Shown piece by piece: positions 16,549 through 30,908 of a DNA stretch of 55,995 nucleotides (within the stretch, counting starts at the first letter, position 1; every line of letters starts with the position of its first letter). The stretch covers positions 1 to 55,995 of the forward strand of contig JAHIRB010000035.1 of the NCBI GenBank assembly GCA_018818885.1, read 5' to 3'. The DNA comes from Patescibacteria group bacterium. GTDB taxonomy: Bacteria > Patescibacteriota > Patescibacteriia > Buchananbacterales > SURF-54. A model generated the notes under the pieces. The model saw only the letters and a program-made list of their open reading frames with translations. It was not told the DNA's origin and searched no databases. A program made the position numbers and the translations under genes.

Positions 16549-17469
16549 ATGAATAAAAAGTCAAATAAAAAAGTAATAGTCATTTTAGGTCCAACAGCAT
16601 CTGGTAAAACAAAACTGGCTGTTAAATTAGCCAGCAAGTTTAATGGTGAAATAATTTCCGCAGATTCACGGCAAGTTTATGTTGATATGGATATTGGAAC
16701 AGGAAAAGATTTAGCAGAATATATAGTCAAGGTACAAGGTACAAGGTACAAGGTACCATATCATTTAATTGATGTCGTTTCGCCTAAATCTCAGTTTACG
16801 GTAGGTGTGTATCAAAAATTAGCCAACATAGCTATCCAGGATGTCATAAAACGTCAAAAATTGCCCATTATATGCGGTGGAACTGCTTTTTATATTCAGT
16901 CAATAGTAGATGGTATTGTATTGCCTCCTAAGACTTCAAGTCAGTTACGTCAAAAATTGAATAAGCTGACATTGAAGCAGCTATTAGTTAAATTGAAAAA
17001 ACTTGACTCAGCATCATATCGTCAAATAGACAAAAAGAACAGAAGGCGAGTGCAGCGTGCAGTTGAGGTGTGCTTGTATACAAGTGAAAAATTTTCATCA
17101 TTTGGCCAAAAACAAAAAATAGACTATGAGTTTTTGATCTTAGGATTAACTTGGCCAAGAGAAGTTTTGAAAAAAAGAAGCACCAAGAGACTAAAAGTCA
17201 GGCTTGAAAAAGAAGGTATGATCAATGAGGTTAAAAGATTGCATAAACAAGGAGTCAGTTGGAAAAGAATGGATGAGTTTGGCTTGGAATATCGCTGGGT
17301 TTCTAGATATCTTCAAAAGAAAATCACATATGACGAAATGTTTGAAGGTTTGAATAATGATATTAATAATTTTGCTAAAAGGCAGATGACGTGGTTTAAA
17401 AAAGATAAGAGGATTAAGTGGGTGAAGAATTATAAATCAGCAAAAAAATTAGTAAAGGAATTTTTATAG
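16549..17469 (+). CDS. miaA: tRNA dimethylallyltransferase
   Basis: GPTASGKT, IISADSRQVY, GGTAFY, AKRQMTWF. Confidence 0.97.
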   Translation: MNKKSNKKVIVILGPTASGKTKLAVKLASKFNGEIISADSRQVYVDMDIGTGKDLAEYIVKVQGTRYKVPYHLIDVVSPKSQFTVGVYQKLANIAIQDVIKRQKLPIICGGTAFYIQSIVDGIVLPPKTSSQLRQKLNKLTLKQLLVKLKKLDSASYRQIDKKNRRRVQRAVEVCLYTSEKFSSFGQKQKIDYEFLILGLTWPREVLKKRSTKRLKVRLEKEGMINEVKRLHKQGVSWKRMDEFGLEYRWVSRYLQKKITYDEMFEGLNNDINNFAKRQMTWFKKDKRIKWVKNYKSAKKLVKEFL

Positions 17470-18276
17470 CGGGCTTTTAATTTTTTTAAGCCGAGGATTG
17501 GTTACCTGTGTATATATTTGAGTGGTTCTGATATTTTGATGGCCAAGCAATTCCTGTACGTAGCGCACGTCAACGCCGTTTTCCAACAGGTGAGTGGCAA
17601 AACTATGGCGCAAACTGTGAAAGGTCGCGTTTTTTTTGATGTTTGCTTTTTTTAACGAATTAGCAAACACTTTTTGTGCGGTTCTTTCTGTAAGTTTGCC
17701 CCCACGCTCACTTGAAAAGATATAGTCATTTTTATCTTTTCCAGCAATAAGATTTTGAAGGTCAATTTTTAATTTTTCAGGCATAATGGTAATTCTGTCC
17801 TTTTTTCCCTTAGCTTGCCTGATGTGAATTGTTAGCTCCAAAAGGTCAAGATCTTGTATCTTAAGATTGATAATTTCGCTTACCCTTAAGCCTGATCCAT
17901 AAGCTAAAGATAAAAGCAGTTTATGTTTGTTATTAGTTGTAACTTCAATAATTTTTTTAATTTCATTTCTTGATAAAACAACAGGCAAGAATTTATTTCT
18001 CTTAGCTATTCTTATCTGAATTGGGGTGAAGGATTTGGCGACGTCACGATAATAAAATTTAATCGCATTCAAATAAAGATTCCGCGTCTGGACCGAGATA
18101 GCCTTTTCTTCAGCATAAAGCAGGAAGTTTTTGATATTTTCCTCATCTAATTTTTCTAAGCCACTTTGCTTAAAGGTAAAATATTCTTTTAAGCCATAAA
18201 CATAGCTTTTTATGGTTTTTTGGCTAAAATTGCGTATTTTTAATTCACGCTTTACTTTCTCTAGTTCTTTTTGCAT
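17464..18276 (-). CDS. IntI-like tyrosine recombinase lacking the IntI-specific insertion
   Basis: N-terminal SAM-like domain (RNFSQKTIKSY); catalytic R (GLRVSE), K (KGKKDR), HSLRH, LGH, Y (TTQIY); C-terminal SPL; 3' end overlaps miaA by 6 nt. Confidence 0.93.
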   Translation of the reverse strand: MQKELEKVKRELKIRNFSQKTIKSYVYGLKEYFTFKQSGLEKLDEENIKNFLLYAEEKAISVQTRNLYLNAIKFYYRDVAKSFTPIQIRIAKRNKFLPVVLSRNEIKKIIEVTTNNKHKLLLSLAYGSGLRVSEIINLKIQDLDLLELTIHIRQAKGKKDRITIMPEKLKIDLQNLIAGKDKNDYIFSSERGGKLTERTAQKVFANSLKKANIKKNATFHSLRHSFATHLLENGVDVRYVQELLGHQNIRTTQIYTQVTNPRLKKIKSPL

Positions 18277-18321: not shown

Positions 18322-18350
18322 ACCTTATCATAAGTTCGCATAACATACAA
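18322..18350 (-). promoter_or_regulatory. candidate Pint integrase promoter
   Basis: minus strand TTGTAT-17-TAAGGT with TGn extension. Confidence 0.4.
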
Positions 18351-18373: not shown

Positions 18374-18402
18374 ACTTCGTATAATAACGAGTTATATGAA
18401 AT
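18374..18402 (+). other. attI-like primary recombination site
   Basis: ACTTCGTATAA-TAACGAG-TTATATGAAAT (11-7-11, arms 9/11 symmetric); GTTATATGA matches TCATATAAC at the end of cassette 1; crossover inferred at G18391|T. Confidence 0.8.
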
Positions 18403-18438
18403 AATTTATCAAAATTTTAGTTTTTAATATTTTGCATC

Positions 18439-19587
18439 ATGAAAATCAGAACAATAACAACTGGCGTGTCGCTTCAATCACCTGACATTGAAGATCAAAT
18501 TAGGCAAACTGCTGAATTCAATCAGAAAGCCAAAGAAGTATTTGAAAAAGCAGGTTATGAAGTACAAACAACCAGAATAGCCACTAATTGCTGGGAAGAA
18601 TATCTTGGTAGTCTTTCAGACGCAGAAATTGTAAGTGCGATTCAAAAAATAGAACAAATTTGCCAAAGCCTCGACGTGAGTTTTTTCAATATGGGCTACG
18701 CAAAAACGCCTGATAAAATAAAACTCATCCCTGAATTTAATAAAGTTACATCTCAAATTTCATGCTCCGCCAAAATCGGCGACAAGGACAGTGGAATAGA
18801 TTTTGAAAATACCAAAATAGCAGCTCAAGTTATCAAACGAATTGCAGAGGAAACCGAAAACGGTTACGGCAATTTTAGATTCTGCGCCTCCGCAAATTGT
18901 AAGCCAGGCATTCCGTTCTTTCCAACCGGCTTTCACGAGGGAGAAACCGCTTTCGGTATTGGCTTGGAGTGCGGAGACTTAGCCGTGAAGGCATTTTCAA
19001 AATCAAGCAATCTCATAGAAGCAGAGCAAAACCTAAAAGCAATATTTGAAGAAGAAACTAAGAAAGTCGCCGATTTGGCTCAACAGATTTCAAAAGACTT
19101 TGGCATTGGCTATAACGGTATTGATGCTTCACTAAATCCAGGACTTGAAGAGCATGAAAGTATTGCTTTTGCGTTTGAAAAACTCGGCTTTGGCAAATTT
19201 GGAAATCAAGGAACACTTACAATTTCTGCTTTGGTCACTCGTGTACTCAAAGGTTTGTCAGTTAAGATATGTGGCTATTCTGGTCTTATGCTCCCAGTAT
19301 GCGAAGACCTTGGACTTGCAACAAGAGCAAATGAAGCTACTTACGGCATTACTAACCTGCTTTTATATTCAGCAGTTTGTGGTGTTGGTTTAGACACAGT
19401 TCCAATTCCAGGCGACACGCCAGCAGAAAAGATTGAAGCGACACTTCTCGATATGGCGACTTTAGCAATTAAGTTAGATAAACCATTATCAGCTCGTTTA
19501 TTCCCAGTTCCAGGCAAAAAAGCAGGAGAAATGACAGATTTCAAGTCACCATATCTCGTAGACTGCAAAATATTAAAAATTGAATAA
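18439..19587 (+). CDS. cassette 1: DUF711-family protein
   Basis: MKIRTIT start, PGIPFFP, G.SGLMLPV.ED, SAVCGVGLDTVP.PG. Confidence 0.8.
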   Translation: MKIRTITTGVSLQSPDIEDQIRQTAEFNQKAKEVFEKAGYEVQTTRIATNCWEEYLGSLSDAEIVSAIQKIEQICQSLDVSFFNMGYAKTPDKIKLIPEFNKVTSQISCSAKIGDKDSGIDFENTKIAAQVIKRIAEETENGYGNFRFCASANCKPGIPFFPTGFHEGETAFGIGLECGDLAVKAFSKSSNLIEAEQNLKAIFEEETKKVADLAQQISKDFGIGYNGIDASLNPGLEEHESIAFAFEKLGFGKFGNQGTLTISALVTRVLKGLSVKICGYSGLMLPVCEDLGLATRANEATYGITNLLLYSAVCGVGLDTVPIPGDTPAEKIEATLLDMATLAIKLDKPLSARLFPVPGKKAGEMTDFKSPYLVDCKILKIE

Positions 19588-19608
19588 AAAATTTTGATAA
19601 ATTACATC

Positions 19609-20526
19609 ATATAACACGGCATAGCCGGTTCGCTCGCTAAATAAAATCATTTTTTTACCACTCATATATGAAAGACGTTATACAATTCATAAAACCGAGA
19701 ATCGTGAAGGTCACTTGCCCAGGTCTCGATTCAAAAGGAACAGGGTTTCTAATATCAGAGGATGGTCACATAGCGACAAATTTCCACGTTATTGGGCAAG
19801 TTGACCAAAACGGACGCGTCAATTATGCAAAACAAATTATTGTCTCAAATTCTATTATTGAAGATGTAGAAGCCAATATTGTTCACAATGTTAAGGATAC
19901 CGCGTCCGTTTTGCACGATTACTCTATAATTAAAATCGACAAAAATGGCCTAGATTATTTTGAGTTAGGTGAAGGAGCAGATGTAGAAGAGGGAGATGAA
20001 GTTTACTTTGGTGGATTCCCAATAACTCAAAATAATCTCACCTCTCATAAAGGGCATGTATCTTCATTACGTGAAGCACCAACGCGTTTTGGTACTGATC
20101 TTCAAAAAGTTATTGATATTGACGGTACCGTTGTTGGCGGTAATTCAGGTGGCCCTTTATTATTCAAAAAGGACGGCAAACACTTAGTCGTTGGAATCAT
20201 TAGTCAACAAGTAGCATACTTATCAGAGGCCTTTCAACATCTAGAGCAATTTCTAAAAGTACAGATGACAAATCCAAATTCAGGAGGTGTTTTTATTGGT
20301 GGGGTTAATCCAAATGCCGCCCTTTTTGAAACTATCAAAACGCTTAAAACTAACTTATCTACCGGTATCGGAACGGCCATTTTTGTCGATTATATGAAGA
20401 CGGAATTTGAGGAAATAAAAAAATGATTTTATTTTTAACGCTCGCTCACCCAAATTTGGCAGTGGTGGGTCGCGTTTGCTCCCAATTTTACCACTGCCAA
20501 ACTTCGGCTATGCCGAAACGTTGTGC
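19609..20526 (+). other. attC-like site 1 (918 bp, carries a gene)
   Basis: ATATAAC-A-CGGCATAGCCG ... CGGCTATGCCG-AAAC-GTTGTGC. Confidence 0.85.
19668..20426 (+). CDS. trypsin-like serine protease inside attC1
   Basis: GTGF, TNFHV (His), DYS (Asp), GGNSGGP (Ser). Confidence 0.9.
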   Translation: MKDVIQFIKPRIVKVTCPGLDSKGTGFLISEDGHIATNFHVIGQVDQNGRVNYAKQIIVSNSIIEDVEANIVHNVKDTASVLHDYSIIKIDKNGLDYFELGEGADVEEGDEVYFGGFPITQNNLTSHKGHVSSLREAPTRFGTDLQKVIDIDGTVVGGNSGGPLLFKKDGKHLVVGIISQQVAYLSEAFQHLEQFLKVQMTNPNSGGVFIGGVNPNAALFETIKTLKTNLSTGIGTAIFVDYMKTEFEEIKK

Positions 20527-20558
20527 GAAATTCGCCAGCAATTTAACTAATAAAACAG

Positions 20559-21068
20559 ATGTCGGAAATTTTTGAAATTAAAGAAAGCGGCAGTTTGGGC
20601 CGAGGATTATTCGCCACAAAGCTAATAAAAAAAGGCGAGAAAATTTTAGAATTCACGGGTCCAATTATCTCTATCAAGGAGGCACTGCAAAAACCACCAG
20701 AAAAATTATCATGCCCTTTGCAAATCGGGCCGACCGAATATATAGACATACAAGAACCTGGCGTTTTAGCTAATCATTCTTGCTCGCCAAATGCTGGCGT
20801 AAAAAATGATCATTACCTTGTGGCTATCCAAGACATCTTACCTGGCAATGAAATTTTTTATGATTATTCAACGACAATGGATGAAGATAATTGGACCCTA
20901 GAATGTAAATGCGGAAGCCCAAACTGCCGCCACATCATAGGAGATTTCCGACATCTTCCGATCGAAGTTCAAAAAAAATATTTAGAATTAAATATAGTCC
21001 AGTCCTTTATTGCGAAAAAATTGCTGGCGAACATCGCACAACACGGCATATCCGGCTCAGAAAATTGA
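20559..21068 (+). CDS. cassette 2: SET-domain protein with post-SET motif
   Basis: GRGLFA, ANHSCSPN, EIFYDY, CKCGSPNCR. Confidence 0.92.
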   Translation: MSEIFEIKESGSLGRGLFATKLIKKGEKILEFTGPIISIKEALQKPPEKLSCPLQIGPTEYIDIQEPGVLANHSCSPNAGVKNDHYLVAIQDILPGNEIFYDYSTTMDEDNWTLECKCGSPNCRHIIGDFRHLPIEVQKKYLELNIVQSFIAKKLLANIAQHGISGSEN

Positions 21069-21164
21069 CACAATTAAATTTAAAAGGGGTGTCAATTTTC
21101 TTCGACCCAAATTTTTGTTCCGCTACGCTACACAAAACCTTCGGATAATGCCGATACGTTATAC
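21036..21164 (+). other. attC-like site 2
   Basis: GCACAAC-A-CGGCATATCCG ... CGGATAATGCCG-ATAC-GTTATAC. Confidence 0.85.
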
Positions 21165-21229
21165 GACATTGCCCTTCGCCCGCCTAGAATGTAAACTTTT
21201 ATATATTTAGCAAATCTTTTCAAATTATT

Positions 21230-22081
21230 ATGATTAAAACCAAAGTCCTAAAGAAGATAAGCCAACAACAACTGGATAAAAAACTAAAGCTCAATATAGA
21301 GAATAAATATGTTGAGGGAGAACAATGGTTCAAAAATCCAGAATTATGGTATGAATTAACAGCTTTTTCAAATCCTTACATAACTGTTTACTCTGAACTT
21401 GTTCTGTTAATTCAAAATCTGAATAAAATTTCTGGATTTTTATCTGACAAAGCTTTAGTTTTTTATGGTCTTGGCACAGGAGATACAGAAATTATTTTAG
21501 TCAATTCTATACTTCAAAAAGAAAAAGTTGTTGATGTTGTTGGCTTAGAAATACAAGCACAATTTATCGATGGATTTATTCAATCCCTTCAAAATATCGC
21601 CCTTGAAAATGATGAATATGAAATAAACTTTTTGGGTATTCATGGATTATTTCAAGATACAAAAAAAGAATATTTGAAAATTAACAATAAAAAACAAGCT
21701 CACATAATTTTAGGAAATACTATAGGTAATTTTAAAGAAGAAGAAATTTTTCAAATCTTCAATAACTTGATGAACAAGGGCGATATTTTACTCGCAGGAT
21801 TTCAAACAGATGAAAACATGAATAAAGTTTTCAAGCAATATTCAGAGAATAAAATGTTTAACAATTTCATTAGAAAAACAATCCCAAATTGCGATGAACT
21901 AAAATGGAAGATCAATCAAGAAGAATCGCAAATTGAAGCATGGAGTGGTGACGTGCTTGTTTTTCATTCAAAAAAGAAAAATCCTGCGAGTATGATAAAT
22001 TGTGTCAAGGACTTTGGTTTTAAAAAGTTGTATAGTACAAACGATACTAATTCTTGTATTCAGATATTTGAAAAGATTTGA
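21230..22081 (+). CDS. cassette 3: SAM-dependent methyltransferase, EgtD-like
   Basis: YGLGTGD motif I; LGNTIGNF; GD.LL.GF. Confidence 0.7.
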   Translation: MIKTKVLKKISQQQLDKKLKLNIENKYVEGEQWFKNPELWYELTAFSNPYITVYSELVLLIQNLNKISGFLSDKALVFYGLGTGDTEIILVNSILQKEKVVDVVGLEIQAQFIDGFIQSLQNIALENDEYEINFLGIHGLFQDTKKEYLKINNKKQAHIILGNTIGNFKEEEIFQIFNNLMNKGDILLAGFQTDENMNKVFKQYSENKMFNNFIRKTIPNCDELKWKINQEESQIEAWSGDVLVFHSKKKNPASMINCVKDFGFKKLYSTNDTNSCIQIFEKI

Positions 22082-22144
22082 ACGGCGGGCTACGGGCAAC
22101 GCTTCGGGGACGCTGCGCTTTCGTCGCTATCGCTCCTCACCCTC

Positions 22145-22240
22145 GTATAACAAGGATTATGAGGAAAATGGCTCAGCTCGCCATTTTCCCAAATTTGCTC
22201 CACTGCGTTCCGCAAACTTCTCATAATCCTGACGTTATCG
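22145..22240 (+). other. attC-like site 3 (shortest, 96 bp)
   Basis: GTATAAC-A-AGGATTATGAG ... CTCATAATCCT-GAC-GTTATCG. Confidence 0.88.
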
Positions 22241-22259
22241 GAAATAATTTTAGGCTCTT

Positions 22260-22694
22260 ATGAACGAAGAACAATCAAAAAAAATTATGAGGCTTGCTAT
22301 TGAGGAGGCAAAGAAATCCTCAGAACCACTGAAGTGTGGTGTTGTCATTGTTAAGAATGAAGAGGTGATTGCGAAAACATACAACTCTCAGCGAGAATCA
22401 AAAAATTCTTCAGCCCATGCTGAAATAAAAGCTTTAGGAGTGGCTGGACAGATAGTGGACAATAAAAATCTTGATGGTTGCGACATTTTTTGTACTTGTG
22501 AACCGTGTATTATGTGTGTTTCCGCAATCACTTTTGCAAAAATTAGGCGTCTTTATTATGGGATTTCTTTGTCTGACGTTTCACCGAAAGATAAACGAAT
22601 AGATATCAGTATTGATGAATTTTTCCAAAAATCGCCTCATAAATTCGAAGTGATAAAGAATTTTTTAGAAGAAGAATGCAAGGTACTAATTTGA
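22260..22694 (+). CDS. cassette 4: zinc-dependent nucleoside deaminase
   Basis: HAE and PCIMC zinc motifs. Confidence 0.92.
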   Translation: MNEEQSKKIMRLAIEEAKKSSEPLKCGVVIVKNEEVIAKTYNSQRESKNSSAHAEIKALGVAGQIVDNKNLDGCDIFCTCEPCIMCVSAITFAKIRRLYYGISLSDVSPKDKRIDISIDEFFQKSPHKFEVIKNFLEEECKVLI

Positions 22695-22711
22695 TCGCCT
22701 AAAATTACATC

Positions 22712-22851
22712 CGATAACAGCGTGTATGAGGTTCAAAAAAAGTGCGTTAATAATACCTAAAGGCTGCACTTTTTCTTTCACCCAAATTTCGCCTCCTATA
22801 TAATTAAAATAAGGAAGTCGGCGAAACTTCTCATACACGCAAACGTTAGGC
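22712..22851 (+). other. attC-like site 4
   Basis: CGATAAC-A-GCGTGTATGAG ... CTCATACACGC-AAAC-GTTAGGC. Confidence 0.9.
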
Positions 22852-22879
22852 GAAATAAGATTTAAACAAAAATTATTTT

Positions 22880-23149
22880 ATGGCAACAAAACCTTGGACA
22901 AGAAATCAAAAAATTGCTGTATGGGGGGTTATAGCCGTAATCATTATGGGTGTACTCGGATGGTTTATTAAAATAGATTTAGAAATATCTTATATACAAA
23001 GTCAAATTGAACAAATTCAGATAGATAAAGCGAACATAAAATCATTAGTTGTTGATGAATTTTTAAAAACCTGCCCACCAGGAACAACTACTTCGACTAT
23101 TGAATTTGTCGATGAAGGAATTAAATTTGGATGTATAATCCCAGAATAA
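22880..23149 (+). CDS. cassette 5: single-TM hypothetical protein
   Basis: 89-aa ORF filling the cassette. Confidence 0.75.
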   Translation: MATKPWTRNQKIAVWGVIAVIIMGVLGWFIKIDLEISYIQSQIEQIQIDKANIKSLVVDEFLKTCPPGTTTSTIEFVDEGIKFGCIIPE

Positions 23150-23190
23150 TTTTTGTTTAAATCTTACTCTCCGCTCCGCCCTATCGGGTC

Positions 23191-23733
23191 GCCTAACACG
23201 GGCTAGCCGGTTCGCAGTATGCACTTTGAAACAAACATTTTTAGGAAGCTGCCCAAATCAACCAAAGGAGGCCTACTATGATTTTGGGATTAACAAAAGA
23301 AGATTTAGAGAAACCAACAATTACAGAGGTAGAAGAAGTTCGCGTACATGACGGAAGGGGGGGTGCTGCCACAGTACGAGTCGGCGATCAAGTTGAAGTT
23401 TTCAAACCAGAAGAAAATAAATTGACTCTGGCCTATCTCGGCCCCGGGCCATACACTATTGAATGGACGGCGCAATGGAGATGTGGCCGAGATTTCCTTC
23501 AACTGACAACGCCGACAAAAGGTAAGGGCAAAGGCGTTAACGCTTCCAAATTTCAAATCGTCTCATAGTTTCATTATGGACGCACAAAAACGGGAAGGCA
23601 TACTTTCGCCTTCCCGCTTCCTAAAAATGTTTGTTTATTTATCACGCTCACCCAAATCCCACACCTATTTTAGTAAATTTCAAATAATAGCACAAAATAT
23701 GTGAGGGACTTCGGCTAGCCCGAAACGTTATGT
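23191..23733 (+). other. attC-like site 5 (543 bp, carries a gene)
   Basis: GCCTAAC-A-CGGGCTAGCCG ... CGGCTAGCCCG-AAAC-GTTATGT. Confidence 0.88.
23278..23568 (+). CDS. hypothetical protein inside attC5
   Basis: AAGGAGG SD; enclosed by a perfect 21-bp IR (23229-23249/23616-23636). Confidence 0.8.
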   Translation: MILGLTKEDLEKPTITEVEEVRVHDGRGGAATVRVGDQVEVFKPEENKLTLAYLGPGPYTIEWTAQWRCGRDFLQLTTPTKGKGKGVNASKFQIVS

Positions 23734-23770
23734 GAAATTTATTTTTGTTTTTATCTAATAAACACGTAAT

Positions 23771-24202
23771 ATGAATAAATCTTTTTCTCTTTTTCTCGAA
23801 CAACTAAAAAAACTTAATCTACCAAAAGGCAAATTCGCTATTTTCGGAAGTGGCCCCCTGGGTATAAGAAATATCAGAGACACCCATGATCTTGATCTTA
23901 TTGTAGATGAATCGCTTTTTGACGAGTATAAAAATATGCCGAGCTGGGAGTTTAAAAGTTTTGACAGAGATGATCGTCATGTTGAGATGATTGAAAATAG
24001 CGGAATTGAGTTCTACAAAACATGGGGGCCGGGCGATTGGGATACTCGCCAGTTAATTGATAATGCGGAAATTATTGATAATTTGCCTTTTGTAAAATTA
24101 GAGGAAGTAAAAAAGTGGAAGAAAATATCAGGAAGAGAAAAAGATTTAAAAGATGTCCAACTAATAAACGAGTATTTGGAAAAGTCACAAAAACAAAAAT
24201 AA
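23771..24202 (+). CDS. cassette 6: putative minimal nucleotidyltransferase-fold protein
   Basis: FGSGPL...DTHDLDL (GS plus DxD). Confidence 0.6.
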   Translation: MNKSFSLFLEQLKKLNLPKGKFAIFGSGPLGIRNIRDTHDLDLIVDESLFDEYKNMPSWEFKSFDRDDRHVEMIENSGIEFYKTWGPGDWDTRQLIDNAEIIDNLPFVKLEEVKKWKKISGREKDLKDVQLINEYLEKSQKQK

Positions 24203-24207
24203 ACATC

Positions 24208-24337
24208 ACATAACAAAGAGTATGCGGTTCAGGAATTTTTCATTTATAATTTAATAAGGAGTAAAAAATTCCTTCACCCAAATTTTTTGTTCCGCTATCG
24301 CTACACAAAAAACTTCGCATACTCTTAAACGTTATGT
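24208..24337 (+). other. attC-like site 6
   Basis: ACATAAC-A-AAGAGTATGCG ... CGCATACTCTT-AAAC-GTTATGT. Confidence 0.9.
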
Positions 24338-24435
24338 GAAATATTGACTAGATTATTCTGGCATAAAATGTTTTTGCCGATAAAAAAGTCAGTGCGATTT
24401 TAAAACTGATAATCAAATAATTCCGTCAATACATC
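24332..24435 (+). other. cassette 7 body: no ORF
   Basis: ~100 bp between TTATGTGA and TCACATAA, bounded by TATTGAC/GTCAATA. Confidence 0.8.
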
Positions 24436-24585
24436 ACATAACACTGTGTATCTGGTTCCGTAAAAGAGAAAAATTAAATAATTCTCTATTTTTAAAAAGC
24501 CCTTTTTCAATTTTTTTTGACAAAGAAAAAACCGCCTCAACCTTTGTGGTATATTGGCGGTAAGCAGTCGGTCTGCTCAGTCCTT

Positions 24586-24762
24586 TTACTTTGTGCGAAA
24601 GAGCGGGCAAATCAGGTCGTGAAATTCTTTCAGTGATTCGTTCAACATGGTATGCCAAACGAATATTCCAACCTCGCGCTCTTTCAAAAGAGCAACCAAC
24701 TTTTCCGCCCTTTCCTGCAACGCGTCATGCGTAAGTTCTGTTTTTTGCTCGTTTTCAGCCAT
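24586..24762 (-). CDS. 58-aa hypothetical protein inside attC7 (below the ORF-track cutoff)
   Basis: MAENEQKTELTHDALQERAEKLVALLKEREVGIFVWHTMLNESLKEFHDLICPLFRTK; GAAAGGAG SD, own promoter, terminator ACCGCC/GGCGGT. Confidence 0.75.
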   Translation of the reverse strand: MAENEQKTELTHDALQERAEKLVALLKEREVGIFVWHTMLNESLKEFHDLICPLFRTK

Positions 24763-24820
24763 TTCTACTTCTCCTTTCAGGTTAGTTGGTAATATTTAAT
24801 ACCAAATTTGGTATCGTTGC

Positions 24821-24849
24821 ATTGTAGCAGAAAACTGTCCCTCTGTCAA
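24821..24849 (-). promoter_or_regulatory. promoter of antisense module in attC7
   Basis: TTGACA-17-TACAAT with TGn extension. Confidence 0.85.
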
Positions 24850-25033
24850 GTCCAGCGACCAAAAAAAATTGAAAAAGGGCTTTAATAAGGTAAATTATTT
24901 AATTTTTCTTTTTTACTCCACCCAAATTTTTGCCTTTCCTTTCTTTTAGAATATAATAAGGAAGAAAGGCAAAAACTTCAGATACACAGAAACGTTAGGC
25001 GAAATTAATTTATTAACCTTTAATCAAAATCAT

Positions 25034-25249
25034 ATGGAAAAATTTGAAAGAGCTCCACAAGAGCCACAATCAACGGAAGAGGCAGTATCACGTTTTCTTG
25101 ACGGAGATAATAATGCCGCAGTGTCTTTTTTGCGAAATCACCGCGATGAAATCGGTGAATTCTGTTTACAAATCCGCGACACATACCAAAAAAATGACAC
25201 TGCGACTCCTTTTTTGGAATTGGCAAAGTTAATTGATTCGTTGCTATAA
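25034..25249 (+). CDS. cassette 8: hypothetical protein
   Basis: 71-aa ORF filling the cassette. Confidence 0.7.
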   Translation: MEKFERAPQEPQSTEEAVSRFLDGDNNAAVSFLRNHRDEIGEFCLQIRDTYQKNDTATPFLELAKLIDSLL

Positions 25250-25270
25250 ACGGTTAATAAATTAACTATC

Positions 25271-25411
25271 GCCTAACAGCGTGTATGAGGTTCAAGAAAA
25301 AGTGCGTTAATAATTTTCAGCGGTTGCACTTTTTCTTTCACCCAAATTTCGCCTCCTCTATAATGAAAATAAGGAAGTCGGCGAAACTTCTCATACACGC
25401 AAACGTTATGT
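25271..25411 (+). other. attC-like site 8 (near-copy of site 4)
   Basis: GCCTAAC-A-GCGTGTATGAG ... CTCATACACGC-AAAC-GTTATGT. Confidence 0.9.
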
Positions 25412-25523
25412 GAAATAGCCAGAAATTTTTTTATTATTTTTTAGATTTTTTTTGGCAATTTATTTCGGTCGAACATAGCTTGTGATATAATTTAATCAGC
25501 TTAATAATTTAACCAATAAAATT

Positions 25524-25802
25524 ATGAAAAACCCAGAAATGAGTCCTGAGCAACCAAAAAAGTGGGAAACTCTAACCACTGAGCAAATAATTGAGAGGAT
25601 AAAATCAAACTCTGAAGCACAAGAAAAAGCTTTTGGTAGTGTTCTTACTGAAGAACAGTTTAAAGAAAGATTTCCTCATAATTCAGCAAAAGTCGAAGAT
25701 ATTCAAAATATGATGCTAGCGTTAGGGTTAGAGCTTCCCACTCAAGAAGATGTAGAGCAAATGATGCAACAAGGCGAAGAAAATGATCAGGAAGAAAAAT
25801 AA
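25524..25802 (+). CDS. cassette 9: acidic hypothetical protein
   Basis: 92-aa ORF; TGnTATAAT upstream. Confidence 0.75.
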   Translation: MKNPEMSPEQPKKWETLTTEQIIERIKSNSEAQEKAFGSVLTEEQFKERFPHNSAKVEDIQNMMLALGLELPTQEDVEQMMQQGEENDQEEK

Positions 25803-25846
25803 ATTGCCAAAAAATACATTAAGGAAAAGAAATTTCTGTCTACATC

Positions 25847-26350
25847 ACATAACATGTTGTATCTGGCTACGCTAAATAATAATTTATTTTCTCTACTTAT
25901 ATGGGTATCAAAGTTGAATTTAACCCCGACCTCGCTTTAAGGAATATTTCCGAATTTAAAAACGGTAATCGTAAAATTGAAGAATGTATTCCTGAAAGCC
26001 TTGAGGAAGGCAAAACATATCCGTTTTTAAAATGCGATCAACGTAATTACTGGCTTTATGGTGCAATACCTTTAATCGAAACCAAAGGCAATGAGATTTT
26101 ATCACGTCCTAAGGCTAAAATTATTCTGCTGGAAGCCACGCACTTTGCTGTTGATAACGTAACGTATACTAAAGGCTTTTACAAAGTAATTGAGGTCTTT
26201 AAGGATGACGATATACATTTTGAATGTTTTGATCCGGTGGGAACGAGAAAATAAATTATTATTTAGCTCCGCCCAAATTTCTTCTTCTTTTTTATTATTA
26301 ATTTAATAATGAAGCGAAGAAGAAACTTCAGATACAACAAAACGTTATGT
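25847..26350 (+). other. attC-like site 9 (504 bp, carries a gene)
   Basis: ACATAAC-A-TGTTGTATCTG ... CAGATACAACA-AAAC-GTTATGT. Confidence 0.88.
25901..26254 (+). CDS. hypothetical protein inside attC9
   Basis: 117-aa ORF enclosed by a perfect 23-bp IR (25871-25893/26245-26267). Confidence 0.8.
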   Translation: MGIKVEFNPDLALRNISEFKNGNRKIEECIPESLEEGKTYPFLKCDQRNYWLYGAIPLIETKGNEILSRPKAKIILLEATHFAVDNVTYTKGFYKVIEVFKDDDIHFECFDPVGTRK

Positions 26351-26383
26351 GAAAAACAATAAATTCATAATAACATATAAATA

Positions 26384-27034
26384 ATGGGGTTCAATAAAAA
26401 GGAAGTTAATAAACTATTAGCATCTTGCCACAGAAGATGCTGCATTTGCCATAAATTCTGCGGGGTCAAAATGGAAACTGATCATATCGAACAAAAATTC
26501 ATCTCGCAGAATGATTCTATTGAAAATGCAATTCCAGTCTGTTTTGAATGTCATGCCGAAATCCATCTTTATAATGACAAACATCCACGTGGCAGAAAAT
26601 TTTCATCCGAAGAGTTGCATGAGCATAAGCGTCAATGGCTGGAAATATGCGAAAAAAATCCTGAGATGTTTATTCAACCACTCCAAAGAAGTGATGTAGG
26701 TCCTCTTCAGTCGTTGGCAGATGAACTAAAATTCAATGTAGCTATCAAACAGTATCAAGATTCTAATGTTGGATATTTCTGTCCTTTTGAGGTTAAGCAG
26801 TTTGACAGATCATTAAATGATGGCTATATCTCTATATTAAATGATAGTTTAGCAGATTCCTTAACTAACACTTATATTCAAATTAAATTGGCAAATACAG
26901 CACTCAATGCTATTACTTCGGCGCCTTGTGAAAGAGATCGAGGATTAGCCAAAAATAGACTCCAAGATGTATTAAGAATAATGGGTACAAAGATTGATGA
27001 AACTTATAAATTGCTTAAAAATCAATTAGAGTGA
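26384..27034 (+). CDS. cassette 10: HNH endonuclease domain protein
   Basis: CCIC...DHI...N.I.VCFECH..IH. Confidence 0.85.
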   Translation: MGFNKKEVNKLLASCHRRCCICHKFCGVKMETDHIEQKFISQNDSIENAIPVCFECHAEIHLYNDKHPRGRKFSSEELHEHKRQWLEICEKNPEMFIQPLQRSDVGPLQSLADELKFNVAIKQYQDSNVGYFCPFEVKQFDRSLNDGYISILNDSLADSLTNTYIQIKLANTALNAITSAPCERDRGLAKNRLQDVLRIMGTKIDETYKLLKNQLE

Positions 27035-27100
27035 ATTTATTGTTCTTCGCCTAACACGGGTTAGCCGGTTCACGCTGGCTAAATAAAATTATTCAATATT

Positions 27101-27676
27101 ATGAAAACTATTATAAAATTAATAAATCTAGCGGCCCTACTTGGGTCAGTTGCATGGCTATCCAAAGATACTAATTGGGAACCATTACTATTATTTCTTG
27201 CCTTATTAGCCGCATTCTTAGGGCAGGAAATCTTACCAACAATTAAAAAAGTGAACAAAGAAGACAAAAAGCTAGGAGAATTATTTCTTAAAGAATTCCC
27301 CTCAAACGGTAAAAGTTGCTTATTTTTAAAAGAACATGAGCTACACAATCCATTCCGCCAATCACAACTTGATGAAATTGAAAAATTCTTAAGTGAATGG
27401 GATAACACCGAACATGAGTTCTTAAATAAAAAATTAGAAAGAATAAAAAAAGAACTACTCTCTAAAATTAATAAATTTTTATCTTCGTTGTTTACTTTGG
27501 TAAGAGCCCATGATAGTGATGTTAATATATTAACAACCAAGCTAAGCGGGGCGTACAATAAAGAGGTAGAAGAAGAAAATGATTTAAAAATAGCTGGACT
27601 AAACAAAATGGCAACTGATATATATAAAAAACATCAAATACTAACAAAAAAGATAAAAAGAATCTTAAATTCTTAG
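27101..27676 (+). CDS. N-terminally membrane-anchored hypothetical protein inside attC10
   Basis: 191 aa, two N-terminal hydrophobic segments; 20-bp IR 27081-27100/27679-27698. Confidence 0.8.
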   Translation: MKTIIKLINLAALLGSVAWLSKDTNWEPLLLFLALLAAFLGQEILPTIKKVNKEDKKLGELFLKEFPSNGKSCLFLKEHELHNPFRQSQLDEIEKFLSEWDNTEHEFLNKKLERIKKELLSKINKFLSSLFTLVRAHDSDVNILTTKLSGAYNKEVEEENDLKIAGLNKMATDIYKKHQILTKKIKRILNS

Positions 27677-27729
27677 CTAATATTGAATAATTTTATTTTT
27701 AACGCTTGCTAATAAAATAATTTAAAAAT

Positions 27730-28023
27730 ATGGAAAATCAAATATTTAAAAAATTTACCTTATGGGATTCAGTAGTTTTACTGGTTTTAATACTTATTGC
27801 TATACCATCAATACTTGGAGTATTAGAAGCTGTAACTGGTCAAGACTATTATCAAATGACGGTTTATCTTTTTATATCGGCTATAATCTTGTTTGGAATT
27901 TTCAAATATTCAAAAAAGTTGGTGAGCAATATAAAAAATGCAGAAACTAAAAAAAGAGCAACTATAATATCAGCAGTATTGATAATCATTACCCTGCTAT
28001 TCTTTTTCAGACTATTTTTTTAA
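27730..28023 (+). CDS. 3-TM hypothetical protein inside attC10
   Basis: 97 aa; 18-bp IR 27711-27728/28017-28034. Confidence 0.75.
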   Translation: MENQIFKKFTLWDSVVLLVLILIAIPSILGVLEAVTGQDYYQMTVYLFISAIILFGIFKYSKKLVSNIKNAETKKRATIISAVLIIITLLFFFRLFF

Positions 28024-28217
28024 ATTATTTTATTTAACGCGCTCACCCAAATCCCGCCATGGGCGGGACTTCGGCTAACCCGAAACGTTAGGTAACATTT
28101 TATTCAAAATCTTTTAAATTTAATAATAGAGCCCTTTTGAAATTTTTTAAGAAAAAAGAAAGGGCTCCGCTCACTATTTTTAGTGGGGAGCCCTGATGAG
28201 CGGAGGACGCACGACAG

Positions 28218-28655
28218 TCACTTGAGGCGCGAGACTGCCTCGACGCCACTCATAGTTCTGCCAGTGGCGCAATCCATCACGAAGCTGCCGACTGACGACC
28301 CCGCCTTGATCATGGCGAGCCACTGGTCGTAGGTCGCCGTCGCGTACGGTCCGGCCGAGGCCTTGTTGTCGGCGAGCCAGCGTGCGAGCGCTTCGGGCGT
28401 TTCCATCACAGGCGAGATTGGTGTCCCTTCCGTGACGGACTCATACATCTGGTAGTGCGTGCGTTCCGACTCCGGCCACTGCGGCATGACGTCGCATCCG
28501 TAGTTCGGCGGGTCGTTGTTGAGCCAGCCGTCACGTAGTCCCTCCACAATCTCTTCCTCGTCGTACGGGAAGTGCTCGTGCATGGGGATGTGGTGGCCGT
28601 TCTCGTCCTTGGGGTGTTCCCAGTTTGCGGGAACTCTGCGAGCTTCTGTACTCAT
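28218..28655 (-). CDS. cassette 11: antisense, GC-rich hypothetical protein
   Basis: 145 aa; GAGGAGG SD; 42/60 and 38/60 G+C in two lines counted; GGGCTCC/GGAGCCC terminator. Confidence 0.85.
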   Translation of the reverse strand: MSTEARRVPANWEHPKDENGHHIPMHEHFPYDEEEIVEGLRDGWLNNDPPNYGCDVMPQWPESERTHYQMYESVTEGTPISPVMETPEALARWLADNKASAGPYATATYDQWLAMIKAGSSVGSFVMDCATGRTMSGVEAVSRLK

Positions 28656-28717
28656 GGCTTTGTCCTCCTCTTTGGTTGTTTTATGTGCAATTTAACGCCA
28701 AAATTAGCGTTCATATT

Positions 28718-28746
28718 AGTATAGCATAAAACTGATAACCTGTCAA
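28718..28746 (-). promoter_or_regulatory. promoter of antisense module in cassette 11
   Basis: TTGACA-17-TATACT with TGn extension. Confidence 0.85.
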
Positions 28747-28807
28747 GCTCGCGACCAAAAAAATTTCAAAAAGGCTCTAATAATAAGGTATTTTTGAATA
28801 AAACATC

Positions 28808-29253
28808 ACCTAACACCTGCTATCTGACTCCGCCTTTCGATAAATAATTTTTAACCACTTAATATGGAAACTTTAGAAAACTTTATAGAAAAACTTGACG
28901 AAAAAACTGAGATTGAAATAGCAAACTTTTTAAATGCAAGCCAAGATTCAAAAAGAGATTCAATAAAAGCTATTTTAGATTCTAGAATTATAAAAAATTT
29001 ACAGCAACTAACTAAAACAATCGAAGAAAATAACATAAAAACAGAAAACTATAATACTACACTAACTAAACTTACAAAATGGATTTTTATATTTACAGTT
29101 GTGATGACTATTGCAACAATAATCAGTTTATTCAAAGGTTAAAAATTATTTATCGGGCGTCGCGCAAATTGCTCATTCGCTTACGTGATGACCTCCAGTT
29201 AATTATATCACGACGCGAATTTCGCAACTTCAGATAGCAGGGTAACGTTATGT
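28808..29253 (+). other. attC-like site 11 (446 bp, carries a gene)
   Basis: ACCTAAC-A-CCTGCTATCTG ... CAGATAGCAGG-GTAAC-GTTATGT. Confidence 0.82.
28864..29142 (+). CDS. coiled-coil protein with C-terminal TM, inside attC11
   Basis: 92 aa; perfect 19-bp IR 28838-28856/29137-29155. Confidence 0.78.
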   Translation: METLENFIEKLDEKTEIEIANFLNASQDSKRDSIKAILDSRIIKNLQQLTKTIEENNIKTENYNTTLTKLTKWIFIFTVVMTIATIISLFKG

Positions 29254-29307
29254 GATGTTTGGCTTTTACTTAGTACAATTAATAATTTATAATTTAATAA
29301 AACCATT

Positions 29308-29469
29308 ATGAACAAAACAACAAAAATCACATTACTTATTATTGCTGGTTTATTAGTGTTTAACGGATTAATCAATATTTCCGACAATGGAGGAGTTTTA
29401 GCCTATGACATTGCTTCCATTTTATCTGGAATTGGATTTATTGTTGTTGCTCTATCTAAGAAAGCATAA
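29308..29469 (+). CDS. cassette 12: 53-aa 2-TM protein (below the ORF-track cutoff)
   Basis: MNKTTKITLLIIAGLLVFNGLINISDNGGVLAYDIASILSGIGFIVVALSKKA; fills the cassette. Confidence 0.75.
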   Translation: MNKTTKITLLIIAGLLVFNGLINISDNGGVLAYDIASILSGIGFIVVALSKKA

Positions 29470-29481
29470 AAGCCGAACATC

Positions 29482-29678
29482 ACATAACAGCGTGTATCTG
29501 GTTACGGAAAATTGGCGTTAATTAAATCCTTAAGGAATGCCAATTTTCCTCCGCCCAAATTTTCATCCCTTTACAAGATGAGGATTTGGGTGGGGTTCTG
29601 TTAAAAAGTGTCGTCTGATAATCAAAATTTAACCTATTTAATCGGGATGAAAACTTCAGATACACGCGAACGTTATAT
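29482..29678 (+). other. attC-like site 12
   Basis: ACATAAC-A-GCGTGTATCTG ... CAGATACACGC-GAAC-GTTATAT. Confidence 0.88.
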
Positions 29679-29698
29679 GAAATAATAATTTTATTTTT

Positions 29699-30169
29699 AT
29701 GTCAGATAAAATAAACAAATGCCTAGATGATTTAAGATATGCTTATAAATGTAACGTGCCTTTGGGATAAGTACTCGAATCATATAGTTTTTACGCTGAT
29801 CCTAAATATGTCACAATAGAAACTTACAAAAATTTTTGCGTGTTTGTTTATAAAACGGATATTGATAACGAGGGAATTTTAAAAAAAGCTAAAAAATATC
29901 CCGATTACGAAACTTATATAAGTGACAAAAGTAGTTTTGCAAAATTTTTTATTGAACGCGGTCCAAGATTAGATACGCCCAAAAAGAAACGAATTAAAAA
30001 ATATACTACCTATTCAGCGCATGGACATTTCCAAACCAATAATCCTATTTCTGCTTTTTTAAACTTCATAGCGATGTTGCCCGCTTATATATTAATGATG
30101 ACTATCGCCGGAATCGCAAAGATTTTTGTAAGTTTCTTTGACCTGTTCAAATCTAACAAAGAAAAATAA
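29699..30169 (+). pseudogene. cassette 13 gene with in-frame TAA at codon 24
   Basis: ATG 29699 is in frame with ORF 29840; single TAA at 29768-29770, frame otherwise open. Confidence 0.65.
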
Positions 30170-30251
30170 AATTATTACATCGTATAACACGGCGTATACG
30201 ACATTTGTTTATCCACTAAAACCCGGGGGAGTCGTTCGCGAACGGCTTCTC

Positions 30252-30300
30252 TTGACAAAAATAATCAGGCTGATATAATTGTAATACAATGTATTACAAT
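30252..30300 (+). promoter_or_regulatory. TA promoter and operator
   Basis: TTGACA-16-TGnTATAAT followed by palindrome ATTGTAATACA-A-TGTATTACAAT (30278-30300). Confidence 0.85.
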
Positions 30301-30312
30301 TAATCTATTTCT

Positions 30313-30528
30313 ATGAGACAAGTAATTAACATCTCCTTACCTAAACAAACAGCCCATGAAGTCAAATCTGCCGTTAAAAGAGGCAATTATCTCAGCGTCA
30401 GTGAGTTTTTTCGTGATTTATTAAGAGATTGGCAGGCAGGTAATCTTCTTAATGAATTAAACCAAAGTAGAAAAGAAATTAAAGCGGGCAAGGGCAAAAC
30501 CTTAAAATCCTTAAAGGATTTAAGGTAA
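30313..30528 (+). CDS. ribbon-helix-helix antitoxin (ParD/CopG-like)
   Basis: VINISLP...G.Y.SVSEFFRDLLR; upstream of RelE-like toxin. Confidence 0.85.
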   Translation: MRQVINISLPKQTAHEVKSAVKRGNYLSVSEFFRDLLRDWQAGNLLNELNQSRKEIKAGKGKTLKSLKDLR

Positions 30529-30534
30529 TTTTTT

Positions 30535-30792: not shown

Positions 30793-30908
30793 ACAAACGT
30801 CGCATACGCTGGAACGTTAGGCGAACTTTATATGATCCTGATGTTATGCAATTACATAATTTAACACGAAAAAAGAATTTTTAGAATGTAGATTATAATC
30901 TAGAAATT

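What the first reader, a model, noticed from the sequence alone, without database searches (positions are those of the whole stretch)
17464..18276. Cassette-array integrase that lacks the IntI signature insertion
All catalytic residues are present, but only 58 residues separate KDR from HSLRH; I recall about 100 in IntI1. The I2-helix insert that canonical IntIs use to read extrahelical bases of folded attC is missing. The gene still sits divergently beside an attI and 13 cassettes whose sites also lack the canonical L'' extra base. This could be a distinct integron family between XerC/D and IntI that IntI-specific HMMs would miss.
Basis: partly seen in the sequence, partly recalled or inferred. 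Interest (0 to 1): 0.87.

Follow-up and report, generated by a model that had tools for sequence, protein, structure and literature searches.

The report
Integron run by an insertion-less integrase
A 270-residue recombinase of an ultra-small (CPR/Patescibacteria-type) bacterium lacks the extra domain that defines integron integrases, yet it sits beside its own docking site and 13 swappable gene cassettes, which suggests gene-cassette capture does not need that domain.

Summary
The gene at 17464-18276 (minus strand) encodes an intact tyrosine recombinase with all catalytic residues. Only 58 residues separate KDR from HSLRH, against 100-106 in 30 of 32 canonical IntIs. The whole IntI 'additional domain' (I2 helix, LPxALxRKYP..WxW motif) is absent.

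The protein scores below NCBI's IntI cut-offs and just above the XerA model cut-off. None of 401 genomes sampled from its phylum has a canonical IntI, and about 11% carry this short type.

Beside the gene lie a conserved, dif-like attI (crossover G|TT at 18391/18392) and 13 attC sites. These sites have RYYYAAC/GTTRRRY ends and a perfectly paired 11-bp L box, with no extrahelical base in the L box.

Relatives in most of 28 further loci have the same attI, and roughly half have detectable attC sites. Metagenome contigs encoding the identical integrase differ by whole cassettes, inserted or swapped exactly at G|TT.

In a tree, canonical IntIs are one clade (100/100) and this family is another (99/91). 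Both lie inside a node (99/97) that excludes XerA and XerC/D.

My reading is a real, active integron variant that works without I2, probably on folded bottom-strand attC. No assay was possible, and I found no published description.

The parts
17464..18276 (-). Insertion-less integron-type integrase gene (270 aa; R131, K156 as candidate catalytic Lys, H220, R223, H246, Y255; C-terminal KSPL tail)
17695..17745 (-). Codons 178-194, where canonical IntIs carry about 42 extra residues (I2 helix / additional domain); here a short loop
18335..18349 (+). Distal copy of the attI left arm (TTCGCATAA + CATACA), 41 nt upstream of the core. It is conserved in relatives and is a likely accessory integrase-binding site
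18376..18402 (+). attI core, dif-like: TTCGTATAA - TAACGAG - TTATATGAAAT. The crossover G|TT lies between 18391 and 18392
18392..30816 (+). Array of 13 cassettes, each running from TT... to ...G of the next G|TT
19604..20531 (+). attC1 (a trypsin-like ORF, 19668-20426, lies between L'' and L')
21031..21169 (+). attC2 (L box with an indel, degenerate)
22142..22245 (+). attC3 (short, 104 nt)
22707..22856 (+). attC4 (150 nt, three-way-junction fold)
23188..23738 (+). attC5 (a 96-aa ORF inside)
24203..24342 (+). attC6 (140 nt; bottom strand -29 versus top strand -24 kcal/mol)
24431..25005 (+). attC7 (a minus-strand 58-aa ORF inside)
25266..25416 (+). attC8 (interior 91% identical to attC4, different R'')
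25842..26355 (+). attC9 (a 117-aa ORF inside)
27045..28098 (+). attC10 (two ORFs inside)
28803..29258 (+). attC11 (a 92-aa ORF inside)
29477..29683 (+). attC12 (207 nt)
30177..30826 (+). attC13 (degenerate L box; encloses an RHH antitoxin / RelE-ParE-like toxin pair, 30313-30792)

Best explanation
This is the integrase of a working, integron-like gene-cassette platform. It belongs to a very large family of about 270-residue tyrosine recombinases in CPR/Patescibacteria-type genomes. The family is related to IntI and XerA but has no I2/additional domain.

Shown here:
- The enzyme is intact and highly conserved.
- It lies divergently next to a conserved double-stranded attI of dif-like geometry: inverted arms TTCGTATAA / TTATATGAAAT around TAACGAG.
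- Cassettes are inserted and exchanged exactly at G|TT of attI and of the attC R' box.
- Each cassette's first 8 bases are the complement of its own R''. This is what is expected if cassettes pass through a circular form that rebuilds its own R box.
- Each attC has a cassette-specific, perfectly complementary 10-11-bp L box.
- The bottom strand usually folds better than the top strand.

Inferred:
- Two integrase monomers bind the R and L boxes of the folded bottom strand. That fold mimics a dif-like duplex with a partly unpaired centre (5' GTTT against 3' T).
- Only the R-box monomer cleaves, at AA|C, and exchanges one strand with attI. The junction is then resolved by replication, as in canonical integrons and in CTX-phi/XerCD integration.
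- The asymmetric internal loop and the branched fold do the jobs that extrahelical bases plus the I2 helix do in canonical integrons, namely strand choice and blocking the second exchange.
For: Protein: searches show an intact catalytic set, no insert, and best structural matches to VchIntIA and then XerA.

Not a housekeeping Xer: the genome has two separate Xer-like genes, and only about 11% of genomes of the phylum carry the short type.

Family size and conservation: more than 7,800 hits at E<=1e-20, about 70% identical.

Linkage to sites:
- The conserved attI is seen in about 16 of 18 evaluable species-representative loci and in all 8 metagenome loci.
- Strict attC calls number 21 on the array side in array orientation, against 0 on the other side, over 28 loci.
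- A motif-free detector finds 19, against about 2.5 per orientation on the other side.
- The only cluster in the window's own genome is this array.

Activity: contigs encoding the identical integrase P0079 and the same right flank carry different cassettes. L012 has one extra cassette inserted at attI relative to L010. L009, L011 and L012 diverge exactly after ACG|TTAT of the shared cassette's attC.

Cassette logic: head-to-own-R'' complementarity averages 8.0 of 10, against 6.5 for other pairings, and no permutation out of 10,000 reaches it.

Hairpin signature: 33 unique attCs carry 22 different L boxes, all complementary. The folds have z-scores of -5 to -8. The bottom strand is the more stable one in 20 of 25 sites, p=0.001.

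Phylogeny. A shared C-terminal SP(L/F) tail is present in 33 of 33 IntIs, 59 of 72 short relatives and 0 of 13 XerC/D.
Against: - No recombination was observed directly.
- The IntI literature cites the additional domain as necessary for integron-mediated recombination (Messier & Roy 2001, as cited in PMC9668308). It describes the extrahelical bases as key elements of attC recognition (PMC2727003).
- Single-strand use is inferred only from covariation and strand-biased stability, and G+T richness of the bottom strand could add to that bias.
- Arrays beside relatives are mostly short (0-4 detectable sites in 10 kb).
- My strict pattern was derived from this window.
- The deep nodes of the tree are weak (bootstrap 46-68).
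- The canonical IntIs sampled come from Pseudomonadota, plus the VchIntIA fragments.
Confidence: 0.7

Rival explanations
1. The same enzyme and array, but the chemistry is classical double-strand Xer-type recombination. Each attC half (R''-A-L'' and L'-AAAC-R') would be a dif-like duplex site. The array would be a chain of alternately oriented modules, like the pdif modules of Acinetobacter plasmids, with no folded single strand involved.
For: Genes sit both between R' and R'' and between L'' and L'. R arms and L arms each covary around 'their' gene. The enzyme lacks the domain linked to single-strand use. Junction sequences alone cannot separate the two pathways.
Against: All units seen to differ between arrays are whole R'-to-R' cassettes, not single modules. 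Short attCs (83-200 nt) fold into compact, highly stable structures with a conserved asymmetric motif (CACCCAAAT, ACTTC) on one side only. Stability is strand-biased, which a purely duplex site would not need. The central regions of attI (AAACGAG) and attC (AAACG) differ in length, which argues against two ordered strand exchanges.
Confidence: 0.17
2. The family is a canonical integron integrase lineage that secondarily lost the I2 domain. The attC sites then adapted, so it says nothing about the origin of integrons.
For: The tree is unrooted within the radiation and its backbone is weak. The canonical IntI clade sits on a long stem. Only Pseudomonadota IntIs and VchIntIA were sampled. CPR genomes are generally reduced.
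Against: Canonical IntIs are monophyletic at 100/100, and the query clade lies outside them at 99/91. Short array-linked relatives occur on several separate branches, including the most basal one sampled (P0164) and the poorly supported group that the tree places next to IntI (P0227, P0231). No trace of the insert motif remains.
Confidence: 0.1
3. The recombinase is an ordinary XerA-like chromosome-dimer or mobile-element recombinase that merely lies next to an orphan array (CALIN) serviced by nothing, or by an enzyme elsewhere.
For: It passes the XerA model cut-off. A 42%-identical relative on a Clostridium plasmid sits next to an IS91 transposase with no array. An N-terminally extended relative (P0179) has no array.
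Against: The genome has only three tyrosine recombinases, and the other two look like the Xer pair. No canonical IntI occurs in 401 genomes of the phylum. The attI is conserved at a fixed distance from the gene start across genera. Cassette gain occurs at that attI.
Confidence: 0.03

Closest known systems
Canonical integrons (IntI1 of class 1; VchIntIA of the Vibrio cholerae chromosomal integron; TIGR02249)
   Same: A divergent integrase gene, an adjacent attI and a one-directional cassette array. The attC ends are RYYYAAC...GTTRRRY, with the crossover at G|TT. R and L boxes are present, and each cassette carries its own R''. The cargo is accessory and includes a toxin-antitoxin pair. The best PDB match is VchIntIA, and the C-terminal SP(L/F) tail is shared.
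   Different: No additional domain or I2 helix (about 42 residues fewer). Scores fall below the curated IntI cut-offs, and the family lies outside the IntI clade. The attC has no extrahelical base in the L box. Instead it has a 1-versus-4-nt asymmetric spacer, a TT/AA bulge beyond the L box, a branched (three-way) fold with a conserved CACCCAAAT motif, and often whole genes inside the fold. The attI is dif-like.
Archaeal XerA / dif (NF040815; PDB 5hxy, 4a8e)
   Same: Same length and domain layout without an insert. It passes the NF040815 cut-off (225 against 220). The arms of the sites are dif-like.
   Different: In the tree it is separated from the two archaeal XerA by a 99/97 node. It is not universal (about 11% of genomes) and it coexists with a Xer-like pair. 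It is tied to attI and cassette arrays, not to a single dif.
CTX-phi and other IMEX elements integrated by XerCD
   Same: A recombinase without an I2-like domain acts on a folded single-stranded hairpin that mimics a duplex site with an unpaired centre. There is a single strand exchange, resolved by replication (discussed in PMC4792948). This is the closest mechanistic precedent for what I propose.
   Different: Here the enzyme is dedicated and encoded beside its own site. The substrates are arrays of cassettes, not a phage genome.
pdif modules of Acinetobacter plasmids (XerC/D sites in alternating orientation; from my own knowledge)
   Same: Genes are bracketed by inverted dif-like arms, one conserved arm and one variable arm.
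   Different: The units exchanged here are whole R'-to-R' cassettes. The sites fold as compact asymmetric hairpins. A dedicated integrase and an attI are present.

Membership tests
Integron integrase (IntI) | Tyrosine recombinase fold with the R-K-H-R-H/W-Y catalytic set | tested here: met
   PF00589 at 1e-44. R131, H220, R223, H246 and Y255 are invariant, as is K156, a candidate for the catalytic lysine.
Integron integrase (IntI) | IntI-specific additional domain around patch III (I2 alpha-helix) | tested here: not met
   17 residues where 32 IntIs have 59-65, with no LPxALxRKYP..WxW motif. No helix in the model.
Integron integrase (IntI) | Score above the curated family cut-offs (TIGR02249 265 bits; NF011946 435 bits) | tested here: not met
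   223.3 and 140.8 bits. Canonical IntIs score 274-530.
Integron integrase (IntI) | Placement inside the IntI clade | tested here: not met
   The IntI clade has 100/100 support and excludes it; the query clade has 99/91. The IntI sample is limited to Pseudomonadota plus VchIntIA.
Integron integrase (IntI) | Hit to IntegronFinder's intI_Cterm profile | not testable with these tools
   The profile and the program are not available here.
Integron (system) | attI next to the integrase gene, used as the cassette insertion point | tested here: met
   Conserved attI. An extra cassette is inserted at attI G|TT in L012 relative to L010, with an identical integrase.
Integron (system) | Array of cassettes, each ending in an attC with inverse core RYYYAAC, core GTTRRRY and paired L boxes | tested here: met
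   13 sites here and 33 unique sites overall. Own R''/head complementarity.
Integron (system) | Extrahelical bases (T12'', G20'') in the folded bottom strand | tested here: not met
   The L box is perfectly paired. The asymmetry lies in the R-L spacer and in a bulge distal to the L box, on the opposite arm. The definition comes from PMC2727003.
Integron (system) | Integrase-catalysed attI x attC and attC x attC recombination through the folded bottom strand | not testable with these tools
   Only comparative evidence is available.
XerA (NF040815) | Score above the curated cut-off | tested here: met
   225.2 against 220. NCBI's own name for the model is 'site-specific tyrosine recombinase/integron integrase'.
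XerA (NF040815) | Sole chromosome-dimer resolvase acting at dif | tested here: not met
   Present in about 11% of genomes. It coexists with Xer-like genes. A 99/97 node separates it from archaeal XerA.
XerC / XerD | Score above TIGR02224 / TIGR02225 cut-offs (about 330 bits) | tested here: not met
   185 and 184 bits. It falls outside the XerC/D rows, which were set as the outgroup. The XerC/D tail 'HP(R)' is absent.

The most novel reading that the evidence does not exclude
Gene-cassette capture at folded attC sites is older than the I2 domain. On this reading, canonical integron integrases arose from within, or beside, this widespread I2-less, array-linked radiation. Extrahelical bases plus I2 would then be a later refinement rather than the founding innovation of integrons. 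The basis is that short relatives from separate branches of the tree carry the same attI/attC architecture. These include the most basal one sampled (P0164) and members of the poorly supported group next to IntI (P0227, P0231).
Probability: 0.35. Interest if true: 0.92.

Novelty: new variant of a known kind. Interest (0 to 1): 0.8.

Why it matters
Integron integrases are defined by their additional domain. The I2 helix is held to be the innovation that allowed recombination of folded single-stranded attC sites (PMC7790495 abstract; PMC4792948; PMC9668308). A natural, widespread and apparently active cassette platform whose integrase never shows that domain, and whose attC sites lack extrahelical bases in the L box, has three consequences.

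- It extends integron-type gene capture to the CPR/Patescibacteria, where 0 of 401 sampled genomes pass the curated IntI model.
- Searches keyed to the IntI-specific domain probably miss these elements or call the arrays orphan. I could not test this directly.
- It provides a concrete system for testing how integrons evolved from Xer-like enzymes, and which features of attC and IntI are really needed.

It is also a compact recombinase with structure-specific sites that may be useful as a tool.

Earlier notes of this same scan flag the same family in at least 36 other genomes. This window is therefore one more, unusually large (13-cassette) member. I found no description in the searchable literature.

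Tried and rejected
- A loose detector for attC-like inverted repeats (AAC-N-X10...rcX10-N-GTT with mismatches) found no more than shuffled sequence gave in this AT-rich DNA. I replaced it with a strict right-arm pattern plus an exact partner and with a GC-filtered exact version.
- The L006/L007 pair first looked as if the arrays diverged at R''-L'' rather than at R', which would have favoured a pdif-like reading. On close reading they carry diverged copies of one ORF-less cassette, so the pair is uninformative.
- A scan of genome contigs with IntI1 returned only IntI1 copies. I used those loci to obtain handles and then sampled IntIs across Pseudomonadota.
- G334 in the phylum gave a full-length TIGR02249 match (235 bits), but with in-frame TGA and an insert that has no IntI motif. 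It is not a canonical IntI.
- P0141 (324 aa), inside the query clade, has a 56-residue insert at the same place, with no similarity to the IntI domain.
- Rfam found nothing in the array, nor in a widely shared ORF-less leader cassette.
Full report
THE GENE. The window is low-GC (about 35%). It belongs to a 1.35-Mb, 98.6%-complete genome in 51 contigs. Close homologues of the protein are labelled Patescibacteria/CPR by their sources. The ORF at 17464-18276 (minus strand) encodes 270 residues, with Pfam Phage_integrase (1e-44) and an N-terminal SAM-like domain.

NCBIfam gives four relevant scores:
- NF040815, 'recomb_XerA_Arch: site-specific tyrosine recombinase/integron integrase': 225.2 bits, cut-off 220.
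- TIGR02249, 'integron integrase': 223.3 bits, below its cut-off of 265, and split into two stretches.
- NF011946 (IntI): 140.8 against 435.
- XerC / XerD models: about 185 against about 330.

THE MISSING INSERT. Against solved structures, the best sequence match is VchIntIA (2a3v), in two pieces. Query residues 7-178 face chain residues 8-182, and query 194-270 face chain 241-317. Sixteen residues therefore stand where VchIntIA has 59. Archaeal XerA (5hxy, 4a8e) aligns in one piece.

I aligned 132 sequences: the query, 5 close and 66 distant short relatives, 10 N-terminally extended relatives, 32 canonical IntIs taken from Pseudomonadota genomes (TIGR02249 scores 392-530), VchIntIA and XerA fragments, and 13 XerC/D. 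The stretch matching query residues 178-194 holds these residue counts:
- query: 17
- short relatives: 15-24, with one of 33
- XerA: 21
- XerC/D: 18-31
- canonical IntIs: 59-65

The IntI block LPxALxRKYPxA..WxW..FP...DP.SG..RRHH has no counterpart in the query.

An AlphaFold model built on 30 homologues (mean pLDDT 88) has only a short strand-like loop between helices 167-177 and 197-210. Foldseek ranks VchIntIA first (E 8.5e-17) and XerA next. R131, K156, H220, R223, H246 and Y255 are invariant in the family.

THE SITES. On the divergent side lies a conserved attI. It has a distal TTCGCATAA (18335-18343). Forty-one nt further on is the core TTCGTATAA-TAACGAG-TTATATGAAAT (18376-18402). The two arms of the core are 9/11 inverted repeats, a dif-like layout.

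From 18392 to 30816 there are 13 cassettes. Each attC reads, on the top strand:
- R'' (..YATAAC), then A, then L'' (10-11 nt), then GGTTC;
- a variable stem, the motif CACCCAAAT and a second hairpin;
- AAACTTC, then L', then AAAC, then G|TTRRRY.

The L box is perfectly paired in every site, with no single-base bulge. The asymmetry is a spacer of 1 nt against 3-4 nt, plus a TT bulge beyond the L box. The canonical extrahelical bases, which PMC2727003 describes as conserved in all folded attCs and bound in IntI pockets, are therefore absent.

Short sites fold far better than shuffled sequence (z -5 to -8), as a three-way junction. In 7 of the 13 sites the variable arm holds one or two whole ORFs.

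The right-arm pattern matches 21 times in the whole genome. Twelve matches lie in this array; the rest are scattered singletons at background level.

IS THE LINK BETWEEN ENZYME AND SITES GENERAL? The family is huge: more than 7,800 proteins at E<=1e-20, mostly 270 aa and about 70% identical.

In 401 genomes sampled evenly from the phylum, none reaches the TIGR02249 cut-off. About 43 besides this one (about 11%) carry the short type, which matches only model positions 1 to about 180 before the break. In 401 Pseudomonadota, 85 genomes exceed the cut-off.

I examined 28 loci: 8 from metagenome or MAG contigs and 20 from species representatives.
- The attI consensus TTCGNATAA..(about 41 nt)..TTCGNATAAAAACGAG|TTA is recognisable in nearly all loci that extend far enough.
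- Strict attC calls (right-arm pattern plus a reverse-complement L box, at most one mismatch, preceded by AAC) number 21 on the array side in array orientation and 2 in the inverse orientation. There are none in 261 kb on the other side of the gene.
- A motif-free detector gives 19 on the array side, against about 2.5 per orientation on the other side.
- Many contigs end within a few hundred bases of attI, as expected where a population is polymorphic.

IS IT ACTIVE? Protein P0079 (70% identical to the query) is encoded, residue for residue, on many contigs. Those read share one right flank (murD and neighbours), but the array sides differ.
- All contigs are identical up to ...AAAAACGAGTTAT and then diverge.
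- L012 carries one extra cassette between attI and the PALP cassette that is first in L010 and L011. It is bounded TTATGTG...GATACG|TTATATG, an insertion exactly at G|TT.
- L009, L011 and L012 share the PALP cassette and its attC, then diverge right after ACG|TTAT into three different cassettes.

In the window, the first 8 bases of each cassette are the complement of that cassette's own R''. The R' half that faces the same R'' in the array belongs to the next cassette and matches no better than random pairings: 8.0 against 6.5 of 10, with no permutation out of 10,000 as high. This is the integron cassette logic. The mobile unit runs from G|TT to G|TT, and it would rebuild its own R box when circular.

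WHICH STRAND, AND SINGLE OR DOUBLE? The 33 unique attCs carry 22 different L boxes, each with its exact complement. Pairing is therefore what is conserved, not sequence. With DNA parameters, the bottom strand is the more stable one in 20 of 25 sites under 200 nt (mean 2.3 kcal/mol, Wilcoxon p=0.001). The exceptions are mostly copies of one 193-nt type.

This favours a folded bottom-strand substrate, as in canonical integrons. It is not proof. The junctions would look the same after a double-strand reaction, and each attC half can also be read as a dif-like duplex site. I keep that as the main rival.

The closest mechanistic precedent for an I2-less enzyme on a hairpin is XerCD on CTX-phi. There the stem has no extrahelical bases and mimics duplex DNA (PMC4792948).

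PHYLOGENY. The tree used 256 columns with the insert columns removed, under LG+C20+F+G4 with 1000 ultrafast bootstraps and SH-aLRT, and rooted on XerC/D.
- Canonical IntIs form one clade (100/100) on a long stem (0.88).
- The query sits in a clade of 39 short sequences (99/91).
- Both clades, with all the other short bacterial relatives, lie inside a node (99/97) that excludes the two archaeal XerA and XerC/D.
- The order of branches within that node is unresolved (bootstrap 46-68).

The family is therefore not a derived member of the sampled IntIs, and IntI appears nested among I2-less lineages.

A C-terminal SP(L/F) tail is shared by 33 of 33 IntIs and 59 of 72 short relatives, and is absent from 13 XerC/D.

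Short relatives on other branches also carry attI-like sites and attCs of the same architecture: P0164 (most basal), P0151, and P0227 and P0231 (in the poorly supported group that the tree places next to IntI). An N-terminally extended relative (P0179) and a Clostridium plasmid copy next to an IS91 transposase do not.

NOT A HOUSEKEEPING XER. The genome has just three tyrosine recombinases. The other two (322 and 327 aa) look like a Xer pair. Two other genomes that carry the short integrase each also have a separate Xer-like gene.

CARGO. The cassettes encode DUF711, a trypsin-like peptidase, a SET-domain protein, a methyltransferase, a cytidine/dCMP-type deaminase, many orphans, and an RHH/RelE-ParE-like pair in the last attC.

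LITERATURE AND EARLIER NOTES. Five full-text searches found no paper on integrons with I2-less integrases or on integrons in CPR/Patescibacteria. The Archaea integron paper lists the additional domain among the defining characteristics of IntIs.

Notes of this scan report the same family in at least 36 other genomes, with the same reading. These are AI notes, not independent evidence. They do mean that this window is a further, large example rather than the first.

VERDICT. The recombination mechanism (single strand, one exchange, asymmetric loop in place of extrahelical bases plus I2) is inferred, not shown.

Noticed in passing
window 19604-30826 (attC1, 5, 7, 9, 10, 11, 13): Seven of the 13 attC sites hold one or two complete ORFs between L'' and L'. 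Each ORF is bracketed by a 20-30-bp, mostly perfect inverted repeat that extends the attC stem. Cassettes therefore carry genes both in the usual body and inside the recombination site.
   Followed up: partly
window 25405-25523 and 25803-25853; L012 (array orientation, first cassette): The leader of one window cassette contains a TGTGATATAAT promoter-like box. That leader and the cassette's tail look close to identical, by eye, to those of the first cassette in L012, whose host integrase is 70% identical. The ORFs between them differ (92 aa against 259 aa). This looks like a shared 'expression shell' with exchangeable cargo.
   Followed up: partly
L008, L009, L050, L051, L055, L061, L063, L064 (just after attI or after a cassette): A conserved ORF-less cassette of about 200 nt recurs across genera. 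It reads GTTATACGCAATTCAAAAAATATTTTTC...GGGGAATAAATTTG...TTCTCCGCTNCGCTNCGAAAACGATTTA. There is no Rfam match, and its function is unknown.
   Followed up: partly
window 30313-30792: An RHH antitoxin plus a RelE/ParE-like toxin pair lies inside the last attC of the array. From my own knowledge, toxin-antitoxin cassettes of this kind are thought to stabilise sedentary chromosomal integrons.
   Followed up: yes
L010 versus L012 and L009, end of the PALP cassette: Besides the clean G|TT boundaries, these contigs also diverge about 30 nt upstream of R'', next to a GC-rich CGCTGCGCTCTCC stretch. L012's PALP cassette carries an R'' that no longer matches its own head. A second kind of exchange point inside cassettes may exist.
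   Followed up: no
L013-L017, L056, L062, L064, L066, L206: Many metagenome and MAG contigs stop within 90-550 nt upstream of the integrase start. L206 stops right at the attI G|TT. This fits assembly breaks at a population-variable array.
   Followed up: partly
L069 (Clostridium estertheticum plasmid NZ_CP077623.1, 14871-15728): A 42%-identical insertion-less relative, annotated 'site-specific tyrosine recombinase/integron integrase', lies directly upstream of an IS91-family transposase and has no array. The wider radiation therefore has other uses too.
   Followed up: no
L018 (G334:C5:2411-3307): This is the only full-length TIGR02249 match in the phylum sample (235 bits, below the cut-off). 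Its frame is broken by in-frame TGA, and its insert of roughly 30 residues has no IntI motif. It may be a pseudogene or come from a TGA-recoding genome.
   Followed up: partly
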